Part shown: one piece after another, positions 29,913 to 40,765 of the stretch
Numbering within the stretch: position 1 is the first letter of the stretch
How the letters are laid out: each line of letters opens with the position of its first letter
NCBI GenBank assembly: GCA_017654855.1
Contig: CM030332.1
Span: forward strand, 6,510,001 to 6,574,000
Direction of reading: 5' to 3'
DNA length: 64,000 nt
Source: Podospora anserina
Taxonomy: Eukaryota
Notes under the pieces: generated by a model
Told to the model about the DNA's origin: nothing
The model's input: only the letters and a program-made list of their open reading frames with translations
Databases searched by the model: none
Translations under genes and position numbers: made by a program

Positions 29913-32900
29913 TTACAAAACAATCGCCAACTCCCCCCTATCAACCCCCTCCTCCGCCAAATTAGGATAATACGGCACCATCGCATCCGCAGCCTGCACA
30001 TACGCATCATTATACAACCTCCAATACGGCGTCCTCACCTTCCTCGCTGGATGGAAAAGCCCAGCCCAAACATAATTCAGCACCAACCCCGGCCCCACCG
30101 CCATCCTCACCGCTTCAATCGCTTCGACAATCCTGTCAATGACGTGCGGGCTCGTCTCAAACAGATTAGGATACAGCAAGTTCAGCAAGTGAACCATGGC
30201 ATCTTCACACCCCAACCCTACCACGCCCAGCGCAATATGCTTGACGACTGAAGCGGCAGTTTGCCGATGGACTTGGTCACGGTCGATGAGGGCATCCTCC
30301 AAGAGGGGTGTAACAGCGTAGACGTAGTCCTTGGCCATTTCGCCGATATACTCAAAGAGGAAAGAGAGCGACTTGAGAACACCGTTCTGGACGTTGAGTT
30401 CCGGCACCCGGTACTCGTTCATCAAGGCGGGGAGGACAGTGAAAGGAGCGCAAGTCTCGGCAACGATACCAATGGCAACGGCGGTATTGACACGTGACTG
30501 ACGCTCCTGCACTCTGAGGTTGTTAAGAAGGGTGGCCAACACATCCTGGGGGCCGATGGCTTTGGCGATGAAGCCGAACGTGTTGTTGGCCGCGCGACGG
30601 ATGCCCTTTTTGTGGGCTTTGAGCATATCCAACAGCTCAAAGCAGATTCTCATCCACTCGCGAGCGTTGACACTTTCCGGTCCGCGGTCGGCGATACGGC
30701 CGACCAGGTCAATGGTATTTTCCTGGACTTTCTCATGTCGGTTGCGCAGGATGGGTGTGAGGCGTGGCAAAAGGTCCTTGATGGGTGGCTGCATTTGGCT
30801 GATGCCCACCACAGTCACAATGGACCTCAGAGCACCAAGGATGGAGCCGAGAACTTCAGGATATTCTTCACCGAGGTATTCGTAAAGAACAACACCGAGC
30901 TTGCCCATCAAAGCGTCTTCGCCGCATTGCTTCATCACCATGGCAATTCTGGAAACAAGATCAGCAGCTTGCTGGCGAACTGTGGCAGACTTGTTGTTGA
31001 GACGCCAGAGAATTGTGCTGACGATCTGGGGGAGGTATGGCTTGCAGCGAGTGCCCAGAGCATTGACCACGGAGCCAAAACCGTTGAGCATGATAATGTC
31101 TTCAACGCTTTGCTCTTGGAAGGCGTGCAGGATACCATCGACAAGTCTCTCTTCCAACCGCTCGCCAATGTCTGCCGCACCCAGAGAGGCCACTATCTTC
31201 TCCACTGTCTCAACAGTCATTTTCCGGTAGGCTTCGCTTTCGTCCTTGAGGTTGACCACGATTCTCTCGAGAATCTCACTGACACCGACCTTTTGGCCGA
31301 TATCGACCGTGGTCTCAACCACTTGACGGTAGTTGCGCTTATCCAAAGCCATGCGCCGTACCCAGAAGCTCTTAAAGAAGTCGTCCAACACATGTTCCTT
31401 GAGATAACCAGCTGTGACACCATCCGTCGCGGCGCACTGAGAGATGACCTTGAGCACGACCTTCTTCATCTCCTCATCTGGCGAGGCAAACTCTCGCAAG
31501 AGAATCTCCATAATCTGACTTGTGTAGTAGTTTGCGTAGTCCTCGTCCATGAGGGGGATGATGTAGCCGACGGCCTTGAGGAACCCCGCCAGGCCCTTGC
31601 CTCGTTGCTTGCGAGCTCCCGTCCACAGGGGATTGAGGATATCATCGAAGCTCTCAATACCATATGGGTTGGAGGCTTCGGCAAGAGCAGCAATGGCCAA
31701 ACTGGTGACTGTCCGTACCTTGGTCTGCTCATCGTTGAGGTTGGGCCCAATGCAGTCTACGAGCTGCTTCAGGTGTGGCAACACTGCACAGCCCATCAAG
31801 ATGGGAATCTGCTGGACAATCTTCACACCGGTATGGCGCGCCTGCCACGACTTCTTGCTGCGGCACACGGCTCCCAAGAATGGCAGCAGGGCCGGAATAC
31901 CCAAGGCCGAGGCCACCACAGCAAACGCTCTGGCAGTTGTGTTTCGTACGTATTCATCTACGTGATCGATATCAGGCCGCATGACACTGATCATGGTCGC
32001 GAGACCAGCGGCTTTGCTGAGGTTAGAAATAATCTCGCGACCTTCGACTCGTGCATAATAGTCCTGGTCAATGAGCAATGGCTCAATGACGACCAAGATC
32101 TTGTGGACATAGGGCCGAACCATATCATCCAGCTTGTAAAGGATACGGTCAATAACCTTGACAAGAAGATGGCGTTCCTGATCCTCAAGGGTCTTCTCCA
32201 TGAGTAGCGGGAGAATCTGGTTGAAGAGGGGTCCGGCACCGAAGTTTCGAGCATTATCTGTAAGCTGCCTGAGTGCAGTCTTCCTCATCGGGGGAGTACC
32301 GTTCTTGACCTTCAACAACAGGCGCATGATCTTCCTCTCCTTCAGCTCTTCGACAGTCAGATCGTCTTCATTGGACCCGTCTGTGAGCTTGCCAAAGTAC
32401 GCCATGTCCTCAGGCTTGAAAAACTGAAGATCACCAACACCGGGGATTTCCCTTGGAACTGCTTGCCCAGAGAGACGTGTGCTCTCAGGATCCTGCATCA
32501 TGAAGCCTGTCTGTGGTGTTGGTGGCACTGCCAGCTTGTGCGTGGGCGCCCGGGTAGGGGCATATCCCGGGGGAGGCTCAAGAATCTTGTATCCCTCGTC
32601 AGGACCAGGAAGCATAGCGTCGAGCTCCTCATCGCTGAGTGGCATGTACCGGCCGGCATCGGGGCCGAACGCAGTGGGGGGCAGAACAGCAGTTTGTGTA
32701 GGGTGCATCGGAGTGGCGAGACCAATGTTTCCAACGGGGGTGGCAGACGGCGCTTGATCCCATCTTGACTTCTTCTTTGCTTCTACTACAGTTCCATCAG
32801 CGCCAAGAACGGGCACAGAAGGTGCCTGATCCCAGCGCGAGCGCTTCTTGGGCTCTGCGGCTGCTGGGGCAGCCTCGGCGTCTGTAGTAGCAACATCCCA

Positions 32901-33587
32901 TCTCTTTTTGCGCTTGCGGCCAGCGGCTGCTGCCTCGGTCGAACCGGCATCACCGTTCTCCTTGTTTCCGGCCTCCTCAATCTGGAGTGTAGGCTTATGT
33001 TCTTCAGTGGGACCGTCCTTCATCTTCTGTTCAATAGCTCGGCGCACGCGCTCCTCCTCACGCTCAATCTCGCGACTCTCCATAATCTCGCGATAGCTCA
33101 TTCCATCCTCAGCAGCGGCAGCCTGGCGATTGGCGGCGAAGGGGTCGGCGCGGGTAGGGGTCAGAACGCGATCAAATCGACGCTTCTGGTAATCGGTCTC
33201 GCGATCTGTGATGCGGTTGCTCTTCTCGCCACGACCGGCGAGAATGTCGTCTTCTTCCACTCCATTTCCACGCGCAAACTCATCTATCTGGGCACGGGTA
33301 GCAGTGTACTGTCCGACGAGGCGGCGCGAGCTATCGGCGTCGGCCATGTCCTCATCGTCGTCGCCATCTTGAGCGGGGAGGGAGGTGTGATAGCCTGCAA
33401 ACTTGTCGGCGCCGTTGGCACTTCGATCGTAGAGGTCGGTATCCCAGGCCTCATTAAGGCTGGCCTTGGTTGACGAGTCAGCACGCTGATTGGCCGGGTC
33501 GAAGGTCTTTGAACCTTTTTTCGCAGCGGCAGCCGCGTTTCGCTCGGCCTGGAGCTTGCGAATCTGATCAAATTCCGCGTCCGACAT
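29913..33587 (-). CDS. SF3B1: U2 snRNP splicing factor 3B subunit 1 (SF3B1/Hsh155/Prp10), intronless
   Basis: ATG at 33587 ([11 protein letters not shown]). ULM motifs [37 protein letters not shown], and the HEAT region with [23 protein letters not shown] and C-terminal [10 protein letters not shown]. Confidence 0.97.
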
Positions 33588-34088: not shown

Positions 34089-35624
34089 ATGTCATCTTCC
34101 AGTCGCTGCTCGCTTTACGCAGAGCTGCTAGCCAATATCCGCCAAATTTCACTGGTCGCTTCTCTCACATCGCCCAGTGATGCCTCCACCAGAGTTGCTG
34201 TGGCTGCTGACGGAAGCACCATCGAGTTGACACATCATGGCGAGGTTCACAAAATCAGTTTGCCTGCCAAGATACCTCTTGGCAGTACACTCCTTCCCAT
34301 CGATCAGAGGCAAAATGGGACCACGGCTCTGTCATGGCGATTGCCACTTGGTGGCACGGTTCCCCAACCGCATCTCTCTTCTGATACCCCCGCCTGGTCA
34401 GCGACAGACTTCGACGTCGGCGTCCAGGTCGCTTGCAGGAATTGCAATACCGTCGTTGTGGAGGAGGGTACAGTAAAGGTCTGGAAAGACTTGCCAAGTG
34501 AGAACTGGGCCGAGATGATGGAATTCTGGCATTGTCACAAGCCGGATCACCATCCTGAGGATGGACACGAGCACGGGCATTCCCGTGATGAGCACTTTGG
34601 CAAGGCAGATGAAAAGAGCCTGGCTGCTCGAGGCTATGGGGCTTCGTCCATCATCTCAGCTCAACCAGGTGTCGGTTTTGTTGACTTGACAACGATCCTC
34701 TTTACCGAACGCGATTGCCAGAATATCACGGTAAGTTCTTGACATGACAGCATGAGTATGTGTTTGTGTGGGTATGAAGAAGGTAACCCGGCCGGCTTTG
34801 CCTCCCAATGGCGTGGTTACCGATACAAGTGCCCTAGATGAAGCAACTATCGTTCAACCTGTTCAACAGAAACCACTGGATTGTTTACGAACCTCCTTAA
34901 CAGGACGGATTGTTTCTTTCTGGTGGTGAACGAACCTCTGCATTTCACCGGGTGATTCATAAGTCGAGAATATCCCGGGATACCACGAGGGACATGCCAT
35001 TCCCATTCTCGTTTCGTTCATAGCCAGTCGGCCAGTAGCTGACACACATGTATCTAGTACTCAAACTCAGCCTTTGAGCAAGGGTCATTAAATAGACAAG
35101 ATCTGCCATTGACCAACAACCGCAGCTTGAATGTTTTTTGCTCTTCCTGCCACTCTCAACTCGGCTTCTACGTCTTTCGGACAGCAGCTGTCACCCTTCT
35201 GAAGTGGCAGATGTCTTGCAAGTCCGCATCTGGTTCAGCACCAGGCATCACTGAGTGCCTGGCCGCGACTATCATCTCCACCATCTCGCGATCTGCCTCG
35301 TCAAAGTCGCTCATCATGCCCATTAATGAGACAGAATCAGAAGTCAAACAGACGGTGATTTACGCGTGGGTGCTCAACGCTAATATTGTGTACTCATCGA
35401 GTAATGGGGCGTTGGGAAGACCAGCTATCAAGCTGTTGTATCAGAAGATACCGCGAGAGGAAGCGGACAAGATGTTGGAGGCGGTGACGTGTGAGGCGCA
35501 GGAGATCAACCTACCGGCGATCGCTATTGAGAAGGTGGTCGAGCATTTGGATGAGAGTAACTGGTTGTTACCGGAGAAGGAAAGGGTGTTTAGGGAGTGG
35601 AGGGTGGGGTTGTTGACGAGATGA
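34089..35624 (+). CDS. IPA1: HECT_2-domain E2-binding protein (Ipa1/UBE3D-like); exons 34089-34730 and 35058-35624
   Basis: CRNC motif, signature WKDLPSENWAEMMEFWHCHKP and a second CSSC motif. The phase-0 intron 34731..35057 (GTAAGT...GCTGAC...CTAG) joins the two ORF-track pieces in frame. Confidence 0.85.
34770..34905 (+). ncRNA. Intronic box H/ACA guide RNA, snR81-like, predicted to guide U2 snRNA pseudouridine 42 (yeast numbering); 3' end uncertain
   Basis: Lower stem GGGTAT(34770-75)/GTGCCC(34829-34). Pocket GAAGAA/GATACAA. Perfect upper stem GGTAACC(34782-88)/GGTTACC(34815-21). H box AGATGA at 34836-41, 14 nt from the pocket top. Pocket strands complement U2 GUAUC-[U42 G43]-UUCUU. Candidate ACA boxes at 34900 or 34992. 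Confidence 0.75.
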
Positions 35625-39601: not shown

Positions 39602-40765
39602 GAAGGCACGGAAGGGGAGGATTGGTATGGTTGTAGATTGCCAACTGGCGGGAGGGTAAAGCGGTCACTCAAAGGTTCAGCAGTTCTCTAATCACGGTAG
39701 AGATGCAATGTACAATTATCTAGCGAGGTCTGGGAAGGAGTGCAATGCATTTGAGTCGGTTAGAGTCGGTGATACAGTACGGTAATCATCTTGTTGCATT
39801 TGGACACCGATAATACGATGCTCTGTGCAGGATTTGTGATGACCGTTCCGCCTACCAAGAGCTGGATGTGTTCGATGAGATTGTGGATTGATCCTAAATA
39901 CCCCCAAGCTATGATCTGGAGGGAATATCATAAGAGAGACATCAGGCATTGATTCAGGCATCAAGAAGTAGTGGACAAATGAATTATTACATGTTATTAT
40001 GCTAAACAGCCATGAAGGCTCTAATCATCTATTTCGCAAACGCCAAGTCATAAGATCTATTGTCATGTTAGCCATGTTCAGAGACAGGTGATAAGAACAT
40101 GATATGATGAGAGCCAAAATCAGAAGTCCTGTTAAATCATCGAGCCCCGAAGGACTCTAGCATAAGAGGTACCAGAATATAATTGTAATGTGTTTGATCA
40201 TCATGTAAGGCTGGGGGGAGGTGCAGATTGCGCAGTGATAAAACGTACCATGATGAAAAGTGTGTCGAGTCGACTGCTGTTGTGAGTTCCATGCAGGACC
40301 AGTCCCTGTGTCGACCCCAAAAAATCATGCCTTATCCCCGTACATTCTGCCGCAAGTATCACGTCGCAGTTGGGAGGAACGACGCATGCTTTCTCGAGAA
40401 GACCGAGCCGCAGTGGTTGTCGTGTGGTGCAGAACAAGAGGAAGTGAAAGAGCTGCGAAAAATTTCTAGATTTAAACATCGAAGCTCCAGTCTCCACCAG
40501 CTCCGAAGCTCCGCCAAGAGTTCGGTGGGACATTCATTTCACGTGACCCAGCGTCAGCTGTCTGGCCAATCACAGTATGACCCTAAGCTTGGCGGTCCCA
40601 ATTTTTCCGCCCACAGAGTCCGGAATATCCCTTCGGCCTGGGGTAAATTTCACGAACGTCTGTTGAAACCTCTGCTTGATTTTCGAGACCGACCAGCCAG
40701 CGCCAAATCCGCCCAACGAACGATCCGTCAACAGTCGATCACCACCTCAAAAACCACCAGCCAAA

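What the first reader, a model, noticed from the sequence alone, without database searches (positions are those of the whole stretch)
34770..34905. Hidden H/ACA guide RNA in the Ipa1/UBE3D intron, predicted to target the U2 snRNA branch-point recognition region
Seen: this intron is 327 nt while most neighbouring introns are 50-70 nt. It holds a stem / internal-loop / stem hairpin (GGGTAT:GTGCCC; GGTAACC:GGTTACC) followed by an ANANNA H box (AGATGA) 14 nt from the pocket top. Established: H/ACA pockets sit ~14-15 nt from box H or ACA, conserved U2 reads GUAGUAUC-U-G-UUCUU, and yeast snR81 guides U2 Psi42 with its 5' hairpin. Here the 3' pocket strand GAUAC pairs with U2 GUAUC (37-41) and the 5' strand AAGAA pairs with UUCUU (44-48), leaving U42-G43 unpaired. 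Inference: an intron-encoded snR81 counterpart hosted by a 3'-processing-related gene and invisible to ORF annotation. I could not convincingly resolve the second hairpin or ACA box, nor see the 25S guide that snR81 carries, so the 3' half may be divergent.
Basis: partly seen in the sequence, partly recalled or inferred. Interest (0 to 1): 0.85.

Follow-up and report, generated by a model that had tools for sequence, protein, structure and literature searches.

The report
Intron-encoded H/ACA guide RNA for U2
The long intron of this fungal gene carries a conserved small guide RNA of a well-known type that most likely directs a pseudouridine into the branch-site-recognition part of the spliceosomal U2 RNA.

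Summary
The hairpin, pocket and H box are in the sequence as described (window 34770-34841). They are the 5' half of a box H/ACA RNA of about 228 nt (34770-34997). An extra hairpin (34851-34932), a 3' hairpin and the ACA box (34992-34994) follow. The window is Podospora (Sordariales) and the host is a UBE3D/Ipa1-type gene (PF09814). RNA contigs confirm the 327-nt GT..AG intron. Among 80 orthologous loci from metagenomes, 73 carry the element in the same intron; the other 7 end before its place. Pocket strands (A/U)AGAA and GAUAC (GAUAU in one clade) are kept while both stems covary. On the printed yeast U2 sequence, all 50 complete distinct 5' hairpins select U42 with 9-14 bp, and one Dothideomycete clade extends the pairing to 8+13 bp. 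The element is therefore very probably a U2-Psi42 guide, a functional counterpart of yeast snR81 and vertebrate SCARNA4. It is not shown to be an snR81 homologue: no Rfam match, and the 3' pocket does not fit 25S-U1051. The 3' pocket's target is unresolved. This is a new member of a known kind, possibly identical to an N. crassa "orphan" H/ACA RNA.

The parts
34731..35057 (+). Host-gene intron (327 nt, GT..AG, phase 0) that carries the RNA
   Evidence: Sequence. A spliced joint 34729/35057 is seen in 4 of 4 RNA-like runs.
34770..34997 (+). Predicted mature box H/ACA RNA (about 228 nt), from the base of the 5' hairpin to ACA+3. The ends are inferred, not mapped.
   Evidence: R1 hit 34768-34843 and R2 hit 34932-34997. 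Orthologues measure 172-247 nt.
34770..34775 (+). 5' hairpin, lower stem, 5' strand (GGGTAT). It pairs with 34829-34834 (GTGCCC).
   Evidence: 4 of the 6 lower-stem pairs show compensatory changes.
34777..34781 (+). 5' pocket, 5' strand AAGAA, complementary to U2 U44-U48. G34776 can wobble-pair with U49.
   Evidence: AGAAGG is invariant in 51 distinct sequences. Pairing counted.
34782..34821 (+). 5' hairpin upper stem (GGTAACC 34782-34788 with GGTTACC 34815-34821) and apical part
   Evidence: 5 of 10 upper-stem pairs show compensatory changes; 88.8% of cells are paired.
34822..34828 (+). 5' pocket, 3' strand GATACAA. GATAC is complementary to U2 G37-C41.
   Evidence: CGATA is invariant and the following C is at least 90% conserved. 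Pairing counted.
34836..34841 (+). H box AGATGA (ANANNA), with 14 nt between it and the top of the pocket
   Evidence: The three A positions are invariant in 31 of 31 aligned sequences.
34851..34932 (+). Extra hairpin between the H box and the 3' hairpin. Its length varies among orthologues, its core is conserved (ACCYUC ... GAYGGG), and no box follows it. Role unknown.
   Evidence: MFE fold; alignment.
34935..34990 (+). 3' hairpin: lower stem CCTC 34935-34938 with GAGG 34987-34990; pocket 5' strand GCATTTCAC 34940-34948; upper stem from C34949:G34977; pocket 3' strand GGATACCAC 34978-34986
   Evidence: Alignment A3. 84.7% of cells paired and 11 of 12 pairs with compensatory change. R2 hits in the window and 57 loci.
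34992..34994 (+). ACA box, followed by the 3-nt tail TGC (34995-34997)
   Evidence: A-C-A-T is conserved in alignment A3: two invariant A columns and a C column at least 90% conserved. One orthologue, L056, reads ATA.
35039..35043 (+). Likely branch site CTGAC, with the branch A at 35042, 15 nt before the 3' splice site and 45 nt after the RNA's predicted end
   Evidence: Sequence. The fungal CTRAC consensus is recalled, not tested.
34089..34730 (+). Host gene exon 1 (214 codons), UBE3D/Ipa1-type protein
   Evidence: PF09814 HECT_2, E 3.5e-55. 99% identity to a Podospora comata protein.
35058..35624 (+). Host gene exon 2 (188 codons plus stop)
   Evidence: PF09814, E 1.3e-36. ORF list.

Best explanation
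The intron of the Podospora UBE3D/Ipa1-type gene encodes a box H/ACA guide RNA of about 228 nt (34770-34997). It would be released from the spliced intron and packaged with the Cbf5 pseudouridine synthase complex; both steps are inferred. Its 5' pocket pairs with U2 snRNA: GAUAC with G37-C41 and AAGAA with U44-U48. [quoted passage not shown] The layout is 5' hairpin, H box, extra hairpin, 3' hairpin, ACA. The 3' pocket is conserved, but its target is not identified here. Shown here: the sequence anatomy, conservation, stem covariation, complementarity to U2, and the presence of the intron sequence in RNA. Inferred: stable accumulation, protein partners, the modification itself, and that U2 of this fungus has the yeast/plant sequence at nt 33-53.
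For: 1. Anatomy. The stems, pocket and H box are at the canonical distance, and an ACA box follows the 3' hairpin.
2. Conservation in place.
   - Model R1 finds one hit, on the gene's strand, in the window and in 67 of 80 orthologous loci.
   - 6 of the 13 loci without a hit carry a diverged copy with the same pocket.
   - The other 7 loci end no more than 84 nt after exon 1.
   - In 38 of 38 loci where both exons could be placed, the hit lies in the intron after residue ~213-220.
3. Covariation on MAFFT alignments that were not fitted to a structure.
   - 5' hairpin: 90.8% of cells paired, 9 of 16 pairs with compensatory change, 0 of 500 shuffles as high, slid controls 25-48% paired.
   - 3' hairpin: 84.7% paired, 11 of 12 pairs with compensatory change, 0 of 500 shuffles for covariation score and percent paired.
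4. Target.
   - On yeast U2 nt 31-78 as printed in PMC4712673, 50 of 50 complete distinct 5' hairpins have their best two-sided pairing at U42, with 9-14 bp; 38 of them are 5+5 with no G-U.
   - Where one strand loses a pair, the other gains one: UAGAA with GAUACU gives 4+6.
   - In the Dothideomycete clade of L068 the upper stem is replaced, yet the pocket strands pair 8+13 with U2; CUGAAAAGAA is the complement of U44-G53.
   - In 41,125 bases of rDNA, no site equals the U2 match.
5. Sufficiency. Yeast work finds 8 bp, with at least 3 per side, enough for guiding (PMC6049503 passages).
6. RNA. The intron contig is present in 4 of 4 RNA-like runs at k-mer depths 10.6, 33.1, 9 and 12.6. The spliced joint has depths 12.1, 74.3, 5.3 and 5.6.
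7. Breadth. Carriers include Podospora, Alternaria (L065, 99% identity) and relatives of Zasmidium/Cercospora (L068, 52%).
Against: - No U2 gene of this fungus, or of any Pezizomycotina, could be obtained. The target sequence is taken from yeast and a plant.
- The duplex is short in most species (5+5 bp), against 7+7 in yeast snR81.
- Contig depths cannot show a discrete small RNA. Intron retention or DNA carry-over would give the same picture.
- No Rfam H/ACA family matches at E up to 10.
- The extra hairpin between the H box and the 3' hairpin is not part of the textbook layout.
- The rDNA set scanned was incomplete for fungi: 18S 5' part and 25S ~2230-2955 came only from a plant and a protist.
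- One all-Watson-Crick 3+6 bp site was seen near the end of one eukaryotic LSU contig.
Confidence: 0.8

Rival explanations
1. It is a genuine box H/ACA snoRNA, but the 5' pocket acts on another RNA (an rRNA or other site that I could not scan), and the U2 complementarity is incidental.
For: Only 10 bp pair in most species. The fungal rRNA sets at hand were incomplete. One 9-bp all-Watson-Crick site (3+6) exists near the 3' end of one eukaryotic LSU contig. The N. crassa survey predicted only rRNA targets for its H/ACA RNAs (PMC2780460 passages).
Against: The U2 match is the best site found, and it is the best in 50 of 50 hairpins. In three lineages the pairing grows along the U2 sequence itself, to 6, 7, 9 and 13 bp on the 5' strand. 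The site is a known, conserved pseudouridine that is guided by H/ACA RNAs in yeast, worm, fly and vertebrates (PMC5733568 passages). The 9-bp LSU site was not seen in the plant or protist LSU.
Confidence: 0.1
2. It is a conserved intronic RNA structure that regulates splicing or expression of the host gene and does not accumulate as an H/ACA particle.
For: The intron-containing form is abundant relative to the spliced joint in 3 of 4 RNA-like runs, which would also fit regulated intron retention. No mature ends were mapped.
Against: A splicing regulator would not be expected to keep an ANANNA box 14 nt from one pocket, an ACA box 13-14 nt from a second pocket, and single-stranded pocket sequences that stay invariant while the stems covary.
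Confidence: 0.04
3. It is a chance hairpin in a long intron.
For: The whole-intron folding z-score is only -1.47. 5 of 100 shuffled windows gave one match to the bare sequence pattern.
Against: The element is present in the same intron in 73 of 73 informative loci, down to 34-38% host-protein identity. Compensatory changes occur in both hairpins.
Confidence: 0.01

Closest known systems
S. cerevisiae snR81 (box H/ACA; 5' pocket guides U2-Psi42, 3' pocket guides 25S-Psi1051)
   Same: The 5' hairpin's pocket brackets the same U42-G43 dinucleotide of U2, with the same strand orientation, and an H box follows. The RNA is of similar size (yeast about 200 nt by recall; here 172-247 nt).
   Different: Pairing is 5+5 bp in most species, against 7+7 in yeast. 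The ACA-proximal pocket does not fit the 25S-1051 site. There is an extra hairpin after the H box. The gene is intronic in a protein-coding host rather than independent (the yeast arrangement is recalled). No covariance-model similarity was found. The fungal snoRNAome survey lists the snR81 family as found in Saccharomyces only (PMC5824354 passage).
Metazoan U2 guides for the same site: SCARNA4/ACA26, non-eutherian SCARNA15, Drosophila scaRNA:PsiU2-38.40.42, C. elegans C50C3.14
   Same: All are H/ACA RNAs whose pocket targets the U2 position equivalent to yeast U42, and several rescue Psi42 in an snr81-deletion yeast strain (PMC5733568 passages). Like most vertebrate guides (recalled), this one is intron-encoded.
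   Different: No sequence relationship was tested. CAB-box and Cajal-body targeting were not examined here. The second pockets of those RNAs act on other U2 positions; here the second target is unknown.
N. crassa Nc ACA9 (201 nt, orphan, intronic) or Nc ACA8 (192 nt, 18S-Psi1509 by its ACA pocket, listed as intergenic)
   Same: Both come from the same order (Sordariales), are of similar size, and were cloned and seen on Northern blots. ACA9 is one of only two intronic H/ACA RNAs found there (PMC2780460 Table 2).
   Different: Identity could not be checked, because the sequences are in supplementary files that are closed. [quoted passage not shown] The 18S site near U1508/1509 fits the 3' pocket only with yeast-type 18S (GUGAAAC in L256 and L257). 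It does not fit the two Pezizomycotina-type fragments (GUUAAAC in L136 and L137).

Membership tests
Box H/ACA guide RNA | Hairpin-hinge-hairpin-tail layout, with an internal loop (pocket) in the hairpins | tested here: met
   Two pocket-bearing hairpins are supported by covariation. One departure: an extra hairpin (34851-34932) lies between the H box and the 3' hairpin.
Box H/ACA guide RNA | H box ANANNA directly after the 5' hairpin | tested here: met
   AGATGA at 34836-34841. The three A positions are invariant in 31 of 31 aligned sequences.
Box H/ACA guide RNA | ACA box after the 3' hairpin, 3 nt from the mature 3' end | tested here: inconclusive
   ACA at 34992-34994 is conserved (ATA in L056) in the 58 R2 hits. 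The mature 3' end was not mapped, because contigs cannot show ends.
Box H/ACA guide RNA | Target uridine 14-16 nt upstream of the H or ACA box | tested here: met
   5' pocket: 14 nt (34822-34835) lie between the upper stem and the H box, so the target U sits 15 nt upstream. 3' pocket: 13-14 nt, depending on whether C34948:G34978 pairs. The rule is quoted in PMC2780460.
Box H/ACA guide RNA | Stable RNA bound by Cbf5, Nhp2, Nop10 and Gar1 | not testable with these tools
   Only contig-level presence of the intron sequence in RNA-like runs is available.
snR81 family | 5' pocket complementary to U2 on both sides of U42-G43 | tested here: met
   50 of 50 complete distinct hairpins select U42 on the printed yeast U2 sequence.
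snR81 family | 3' pocket complementary to 25S rRNA around U1051 | tested here: not met
   I searched for the best pairing at the 1051-equivalent site of a fungal LSU fragment (L087). Only 1 of 46 distinct 3' parts had its best pairing with the 3' strand 13-17 nt from ACA, and there the 5' partner lies outside the hairpin.
snR81 family | Detectable sequence/structure homology to the family model | tested here: not met
   An Rfam 15 scan of 34600-35200 at E up to 10 gave no H/ACA family. I did not verify that Rfam holds an snR81 model.
scaRNA (Cajal-body H/ACA guides of snRNAs) | CAB box (ugAG) in apical loops; Cajal-body localisation | not tested
   The apical loop of the 3' hairpin often holds AAG/GAG (alignment), but I made no count.

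The most novel reading that the evidence does not exclude
[quoted passage not shown] The 5' strand of the 3' pocket (GCAUUUCA) is complementary to yeast U2 nt 63-69 (UGAAAUG); 36 of 2000 shuffled guides reach 7 bp, and the best duplex maps at nt 62-64 in 37 of 44 distinct orthologues. The 3' strand (GAUUA) would pair with a UAAUC in loop IIa, which yeast U2 lacks. The conserved extra hairpin could then be a localisation or assembly element. Because the guide is released by splicing of an intron, its supply would depend on U2 function, which gives a possible feedback loop. In Sordariales-like fungi the host gene also shares a 0.5-kb divergent promoter region with SF3B1, the U2 snRNP protein that clamps the branch helix.
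Probability: 0.15. Interest if true: 0.6.

Novelty: new member of a known kind. Interest (0 to 1): 0.45.

Why it matters
Pseudouridine at U2 position 42 (41 in vertebrates) lies in the stretch that pairs with the intron branch site, and H/ACA RNAs guide it in yeast, worms, flies and vertebrates (PMC5733568). For filamentous ascomycetes, the two surveys I could read report no such guide. The N. crassa study predicted no snRNA pseudouridylation (PMC2780460). The fungal snoRNAome lists snR81 as restricted to Saccharomyces (PMC5824354). Their supplementary tables, which I could not open, may say more.

This element fills that gap with a concrete, testable gene that is conserved from Sordariomycetes to Dothideomycetes. 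It also gives a probable function to what may be an 'orphan' Neurospora RNA. It explains why this intron is four times the genome's mean intron length, and it warns annotators that the intron is not junk. It is a useful but unsurprising addition to a known class.

Tried and rejected
- **Whole genome and relatives.** None is held for this window. Records behind the metagenome loci are not searchable.
- **U2 sequence of a filamentous fungus.**
  - The 15-nt U2 motif from the finding has no match in the 81 loci fetched by then.
  - The Rfam U2 model has no match in five bacterial assemblies that carry fungal rDNA contamination; the tool's own controls also stayed silent.
  - 117 viral-contig hits to the motif were all chance, with none in a U2-like context.
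- **RNA holders.** No RNA holder is on record for this stretch. I laid four runs that the tool guessed to be RNA. They show splicing, but they cannot show a small RNA's ends or level.
- **Rfam.** The gathering scan of the window found only a C/D snoRNA elsewhere. The sensitive scan of the intron gave two chance-level hits, to TtnuCD8 and mir-2996.
- **RNAalifold on the MAFFT alignment of the 3' hairpin.** It returned no structure, and my own alifold runs did the same. I therefore tested a structure that I had drawn by hand.
- **Target of the 3' pocket.**
  - Scans of about 41 kb of plant, protist and partial fungal rDNA, with G-U pairs allowed, gave many 8-9 bp sites and none that stood out.
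  - The 18S site GGUAAUC|UU|GUGAAAC fits 6+6 bp with yeast-type 18S (L256, L257). The two Pezizomycotina-type 18S fragments read GUUAAAC there (L136, L137), and the Alternaria guide (GGUUUA) does not fit. I rejected it as the conserved target.
  - The LSU sites GAAACUC|UG|GUGGAGG and GCAGAUC|UU|GGUGGUA pair on one side only or need several G-U pairs.
  - The 25S-1051 site is rejected for the ACA pocket.
- **Middle hairpin as a third guide.**
  - In the window its loop strands can pair 4+6 bp with the 25S region around U1049-1051.
  - However, the register is not conserved among orthologues.
  - By reading the alignment, I saw no ANANNA or ACA box 13-17 nt downstream.
- **Large rRNA models on contaminated assemblies.** These searches failed technically, so I used primer patterns instead.
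Full report
**What is in the sequence**

Window 34731-35057 is a 327-nt GT..AG intron of a two-exon gene on the + strand (exon 1 34089-34730, exon 2 35058-35624). Both exons match PF09814, the HECT-like E2-binding domain of the UBE3D/Ipa1 type. Exon 1 is 99% identical to a Podospora comata protein, so the window comes from a Podospora of the anserina/comata group.

- Lower stem GGGTAT (34770-34775) pairs with GTGCCC (34829-34834).
- Pocket 5' strand AAGAA lies at 34777-34781.
- Upper stem GGTAACC (34782-34788) pairs with GGTTACC (34815-34821).
- Pocket 3' strand GATAC lies at 34822-34826.
- H box AGATGA lies at 34836-34841, exactly 14 nt after the upper stem.

The minimum-free-energy fold of the intron's sense strand contains this hairpin; the antisense strand folds no better than shuffles. 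The bare pattern occurs once in the window against 0.05 expected.

**The intron is real and its sequence is present in RNA**

I laid four runs that the tool guessed to be RNA. Each holds a contig joining 34729 to 35057 (GT..AG). Each also holds a contig that runs through the intron (34701-35086, or 34733-35086 in run X19). K-mer depths of the intron contig were 10.6, 33.1, 9 and 12.6. Depths of the spliced joint were 12.1, 74.3, 5.3 and 5.6.

The joint shows that these runs hold RNA. The intron contig shows that intron-containing RNA is not rare. Contigs cannot show a discrete small RNA, and intron retention or DNA carry-over would look the same, so this is weak support only. The P. anserina genome paper gives a mean intron size of 79 nt (Table 3 passage), which makes this intron unusually long. 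I did not measure the neighbouring introns.

**Orthologous introns**

No genome is held for the window. I therefore aligned 29 orthologous proteins and scanned the metagenome contigs with that alignment. Of 355 pattern matches, 195 encode a relative, and the best 80 were kept as loci L001-L080 (34-66% identity).

- A strict text pattern already found the pocket in 34 distinct sequences, with differing stems.
- A covariance model of the 5' hairpin plus H box (R1) then found one hit in the window and in 67 of the 80 loci. Every hit is on the strand of the host gene, and they make 51 distinct sequences.
- Of the 13 loci without a hit, 7 end 1-84 nt after exon 1 and cannot be judged.
- The other 6 (L061, L063, L067, L068, L073, L080) carry a diverged copy. 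It reads GGGCAC-UGAAAAGAA-CCGG...UCGG-GAUAUUGC-UGCCC-U-AGAGCA. The upper stem is replaced, but the pocket and the 14-nt spacing are kept.

So 73 of 73 informative loci have the element. In 38 of 38 loci where tblastn placed both exons and R1 had a hit, the hit lies in the gap after residue ~213-220; gap lengths are 279-490 nt. The L068 copy also lies in its gap.

Carriers span at least two classes (class names are from my own knowledge):
- L065 is 99% identical to an Alternaria alternata protein.
- L068 is closest to Zasmidium/Cercospora proteins, at 52% or less.
- The window is Podospora.

**The full RNA**

After the H box comes a hairpin of variable length (34851-34932 in the window; short or absent in L004, L029 and L030). 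Its core is conserved (ACCYUC ... GAYGGG).

A conserved 3' hairpin follows:
- Lower stem CCUC (34935-34938) pairs with GAGG (34987-34990).
- Pocket 5' strand GCAUUUCAC lies at 34940-34948.
- The upper stem starts at C34949:G34977.
- Pocket 3' strand GGAUACCAC lies at 34978-34986 (GGAUUA in most orthologues).
- One G follows, then ACA (34992-34994) and three more bases.

A model of this hairpin (R2) hits the window and 57 loci. All hits are on the same strand and downstream of the R1 hit. The distance from the base of the 5' stem to ACA+3 is 172-247 nt, and 228 nt in the window.

**Structure tests**

These counts were made on MAFFT alignments that were not fitted to any structure.

| Measure | 5' hairpin (31 sequences) | 3' hairpin (30 sequences) |
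|---|---|---|
| Cells forming a standard pair | 90.8% | 84.7% |
| Pairs with changes on both sides | 9 of 16 | 11 of 12 |
| Cells with changes on both sides | 41 | 65 |
| Shuffles reaching observed score or percent paired | 0 of 500 | 0 of 500 |
| Paired when the partner is slid by 1-3 columns | 25-48% | 38-56% |

The single-stranded pocket letters behave the opposite way. AGAAGG and CGAUA are invariant in 51 distinct sequences. The three A's of the H box are invariant in 31 of 31. The ACA box is conserved too: its two A's are invariant in the 30 sequences of alignment A3 and its C is at least 90% conserved (L056 reads ATA). RNAalifold alone returned no structure for the 3' hairpin, so that structure is hand-drawn and then tested.

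**Target of the 5' pocket**

A paper's Methods section prints yeast U2 nt 31-126 (PMC4712673). This fixes the numbering as G37-U38-A39-U40-C41, U42-G43, U44-U45-C46-U47-U48. A plant U2 sense oligo printed in another paper has the same letters at 28-48 (PMC4324999).

- On yeast nt 31-78, all 50 complete distinct 5' hairpins have their best two-sided pairing at U42. One more, L054, is cut by the contig end.
- 38 of them pair 5+5 with no G-U, and the range is 9-14 bp.
- Changes in the guide follow U2. Four sequences with UAGAA lose one pair on the 5' strand, and two of them gain one on the other strand (GAUACU, 6+4).
- Alternaria-type guides (AAAGAA), L056 (AAAAGAA) and L076 extend along U49-U50 and beyond.
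- In the L068 clade, the strands pair 8+13 bp; CUGAAAAGAA is the exact complement of U44-G53.

Yeast experiments put the minimum at 8 bp with at least 3 per side. Yeast snR81 itself makes 7+7 bp around U42-G43 (PMC6049503 passages).

In 41,125 bases of rDNA, no site matched as well: the best were 9 bp, mostly G-U-rich or in spacers, with one 3+6 all-Watson-Crick site near an LSU 3' end. That set was plant and protist complete units plus partial fungal pieces obtained as contaminants of prokaryote assemblies.

The weak point is that I could not obtain U2 from any filamentous fungus. Identity of its nt 33-53 with yeast rests on the general conservation of this region, not on a call.

**Target of the 3' pocket: not resolved**

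By the covarying closing pair (C:G 16, U:G 10, U:A 3), the pocket strands are ...GCAUUUCAC and GGAUUA..., 13-14 nt from ACA. UUC and GAU are nearly invariant.

- The yeast snR81 3' target can be located in a fungal LSU fragment from the description in PMC6049503 (U1050-U1051, A1047). It is not complementary to this pocket.
- An 18S site (GGUAAUC|UU|GUGAAAC) fits 6+6 bp with yeast-type 18S fragments. The two Pezizomycotina-type fragments read GUUAAAC there, and the Alternaria guide does not fit. I therefore do not accept it.
- By my count from the recalled position of the NS7 primer, this site lies at about 18S 1508/1509, the number given for Nc ACA8 (PMC2780460 Table 2). The coincidence is noted but unproven.
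- One lead remains. The 5' strand GCAUUUCA is complementary to yeast U2 nt 63-69 (UGAAAUG). 36 of 2000 shuffled guides do as well, and the best duplex maps at nt 62-64 in 37 of 44 distinct orthologues. The other strand has no partner in yeast U2, whose loop IIa differs between species. The idea that both pockets act on U2 needs a Pezizomycotina U2 sequence.

**Comparison with what is known**

The element works like the 5' half of yeast snR81. It also works like the metazoan guides for the same U2 position (SCARNA4, non-eutherian SCARNA15, Drosophila scaRNA:PsiU2-38.40.42, C. elegans C50C3.14), which can replace snR81 in yeast (PMC5733568 passages).

Membership of the snR81 family is not shown:
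- There is no Rfam match at E up to 10.
- The second pocket is different.
- The layout has an extra hairpin.
- The gene is intronic.

Two surveys bear on novelty. The fungal snoRNAome paper calls snR81 [HACA_26] genus-specific to Saccharomyces (passage). [quoted passage not shown] One of its RNAs, the intronic orphan ACA9 or ACA8, may be this RNA.

Literature searches for a U2 pseudouridylation guide in filamentous fungi, or for Podospora snoRNAs, turned up nothing further. I saw listings and abstracts only, apart from the passages cited.

**Verdict**

The element is a conserved, intron-encoded box H/ACA RNA whose 5' pocket very probably guides pseudouridylation of U2 at the U42-equivalent position (confidence 0.8). 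It is a new member of a known kind, of moderate interest.

Noticed in passing
window 29916-33587 (-): The gene directly upstream of the host gene, on the opposite strand, encodes SF3B1/Hsh155 (PF08920, 82 bits), the U2 snRNP protein at the branch site. Its ATG (33587) lies 501 bp from the host ATG (34089), so the two genes may share a bidirectional promoter. The divergent arrangement recurs in 15 loci (L001-L021 group, Sordariomycete-like). It is absent from the other loci, including L022-L024 and the more distant loci that have about 3 kb of upstream flank.
   Followed up: partly
window 40118-40208 (-): There is a box C/D snoRNA matching Rfam Afu_264 (62.4 bits, gathering score 40, full model length). 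Its host and target were not examined.
   Followed up: no
window 34851-34932 (+): The extra hairpin holds an internal duplication in the window: GGATTGTTT and ACGAACCTC each occur twice (34877-34895 and 34907-34939). Its loop strands can pair 4+6 bp with the 25S region around U1049-1051. By reading the alignment, I saw no box 13-17 nt downstream and the register is not conserved.
   Followed up: partly
L061, L063, L067, L068, L073, L080 (e.g. L068 3614-3842): A Dothideomycete clade keeps the U2 pocket but has replaced the 5' upper stem. It also has quite different 3' pocket strands (AACUCAUU / UAUAUCAG). The 5' strand of that pocket is complementary to yeast U2 nt 75-80 (AAUGAG), a weak match that 118 of 2000 shuffles also reach.
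   Followed up: partly
L082-L135 and G001-G010 (prokaryote assemblies): Dozens of public bacterial and archaeal assemblies contain short contigs of eukaryotic (plant, fungal, protist) rDNA, evidently contamination. They were used here only as a source of rRNA sequence.
   Followed up: no
L081 (viral contigs) 2700-2960: A contig filed as viral carries a divergent LSU-rRNA-like stretch around the LR5 primer site but matches no Rfam family at gathering score.
   Followed up: no
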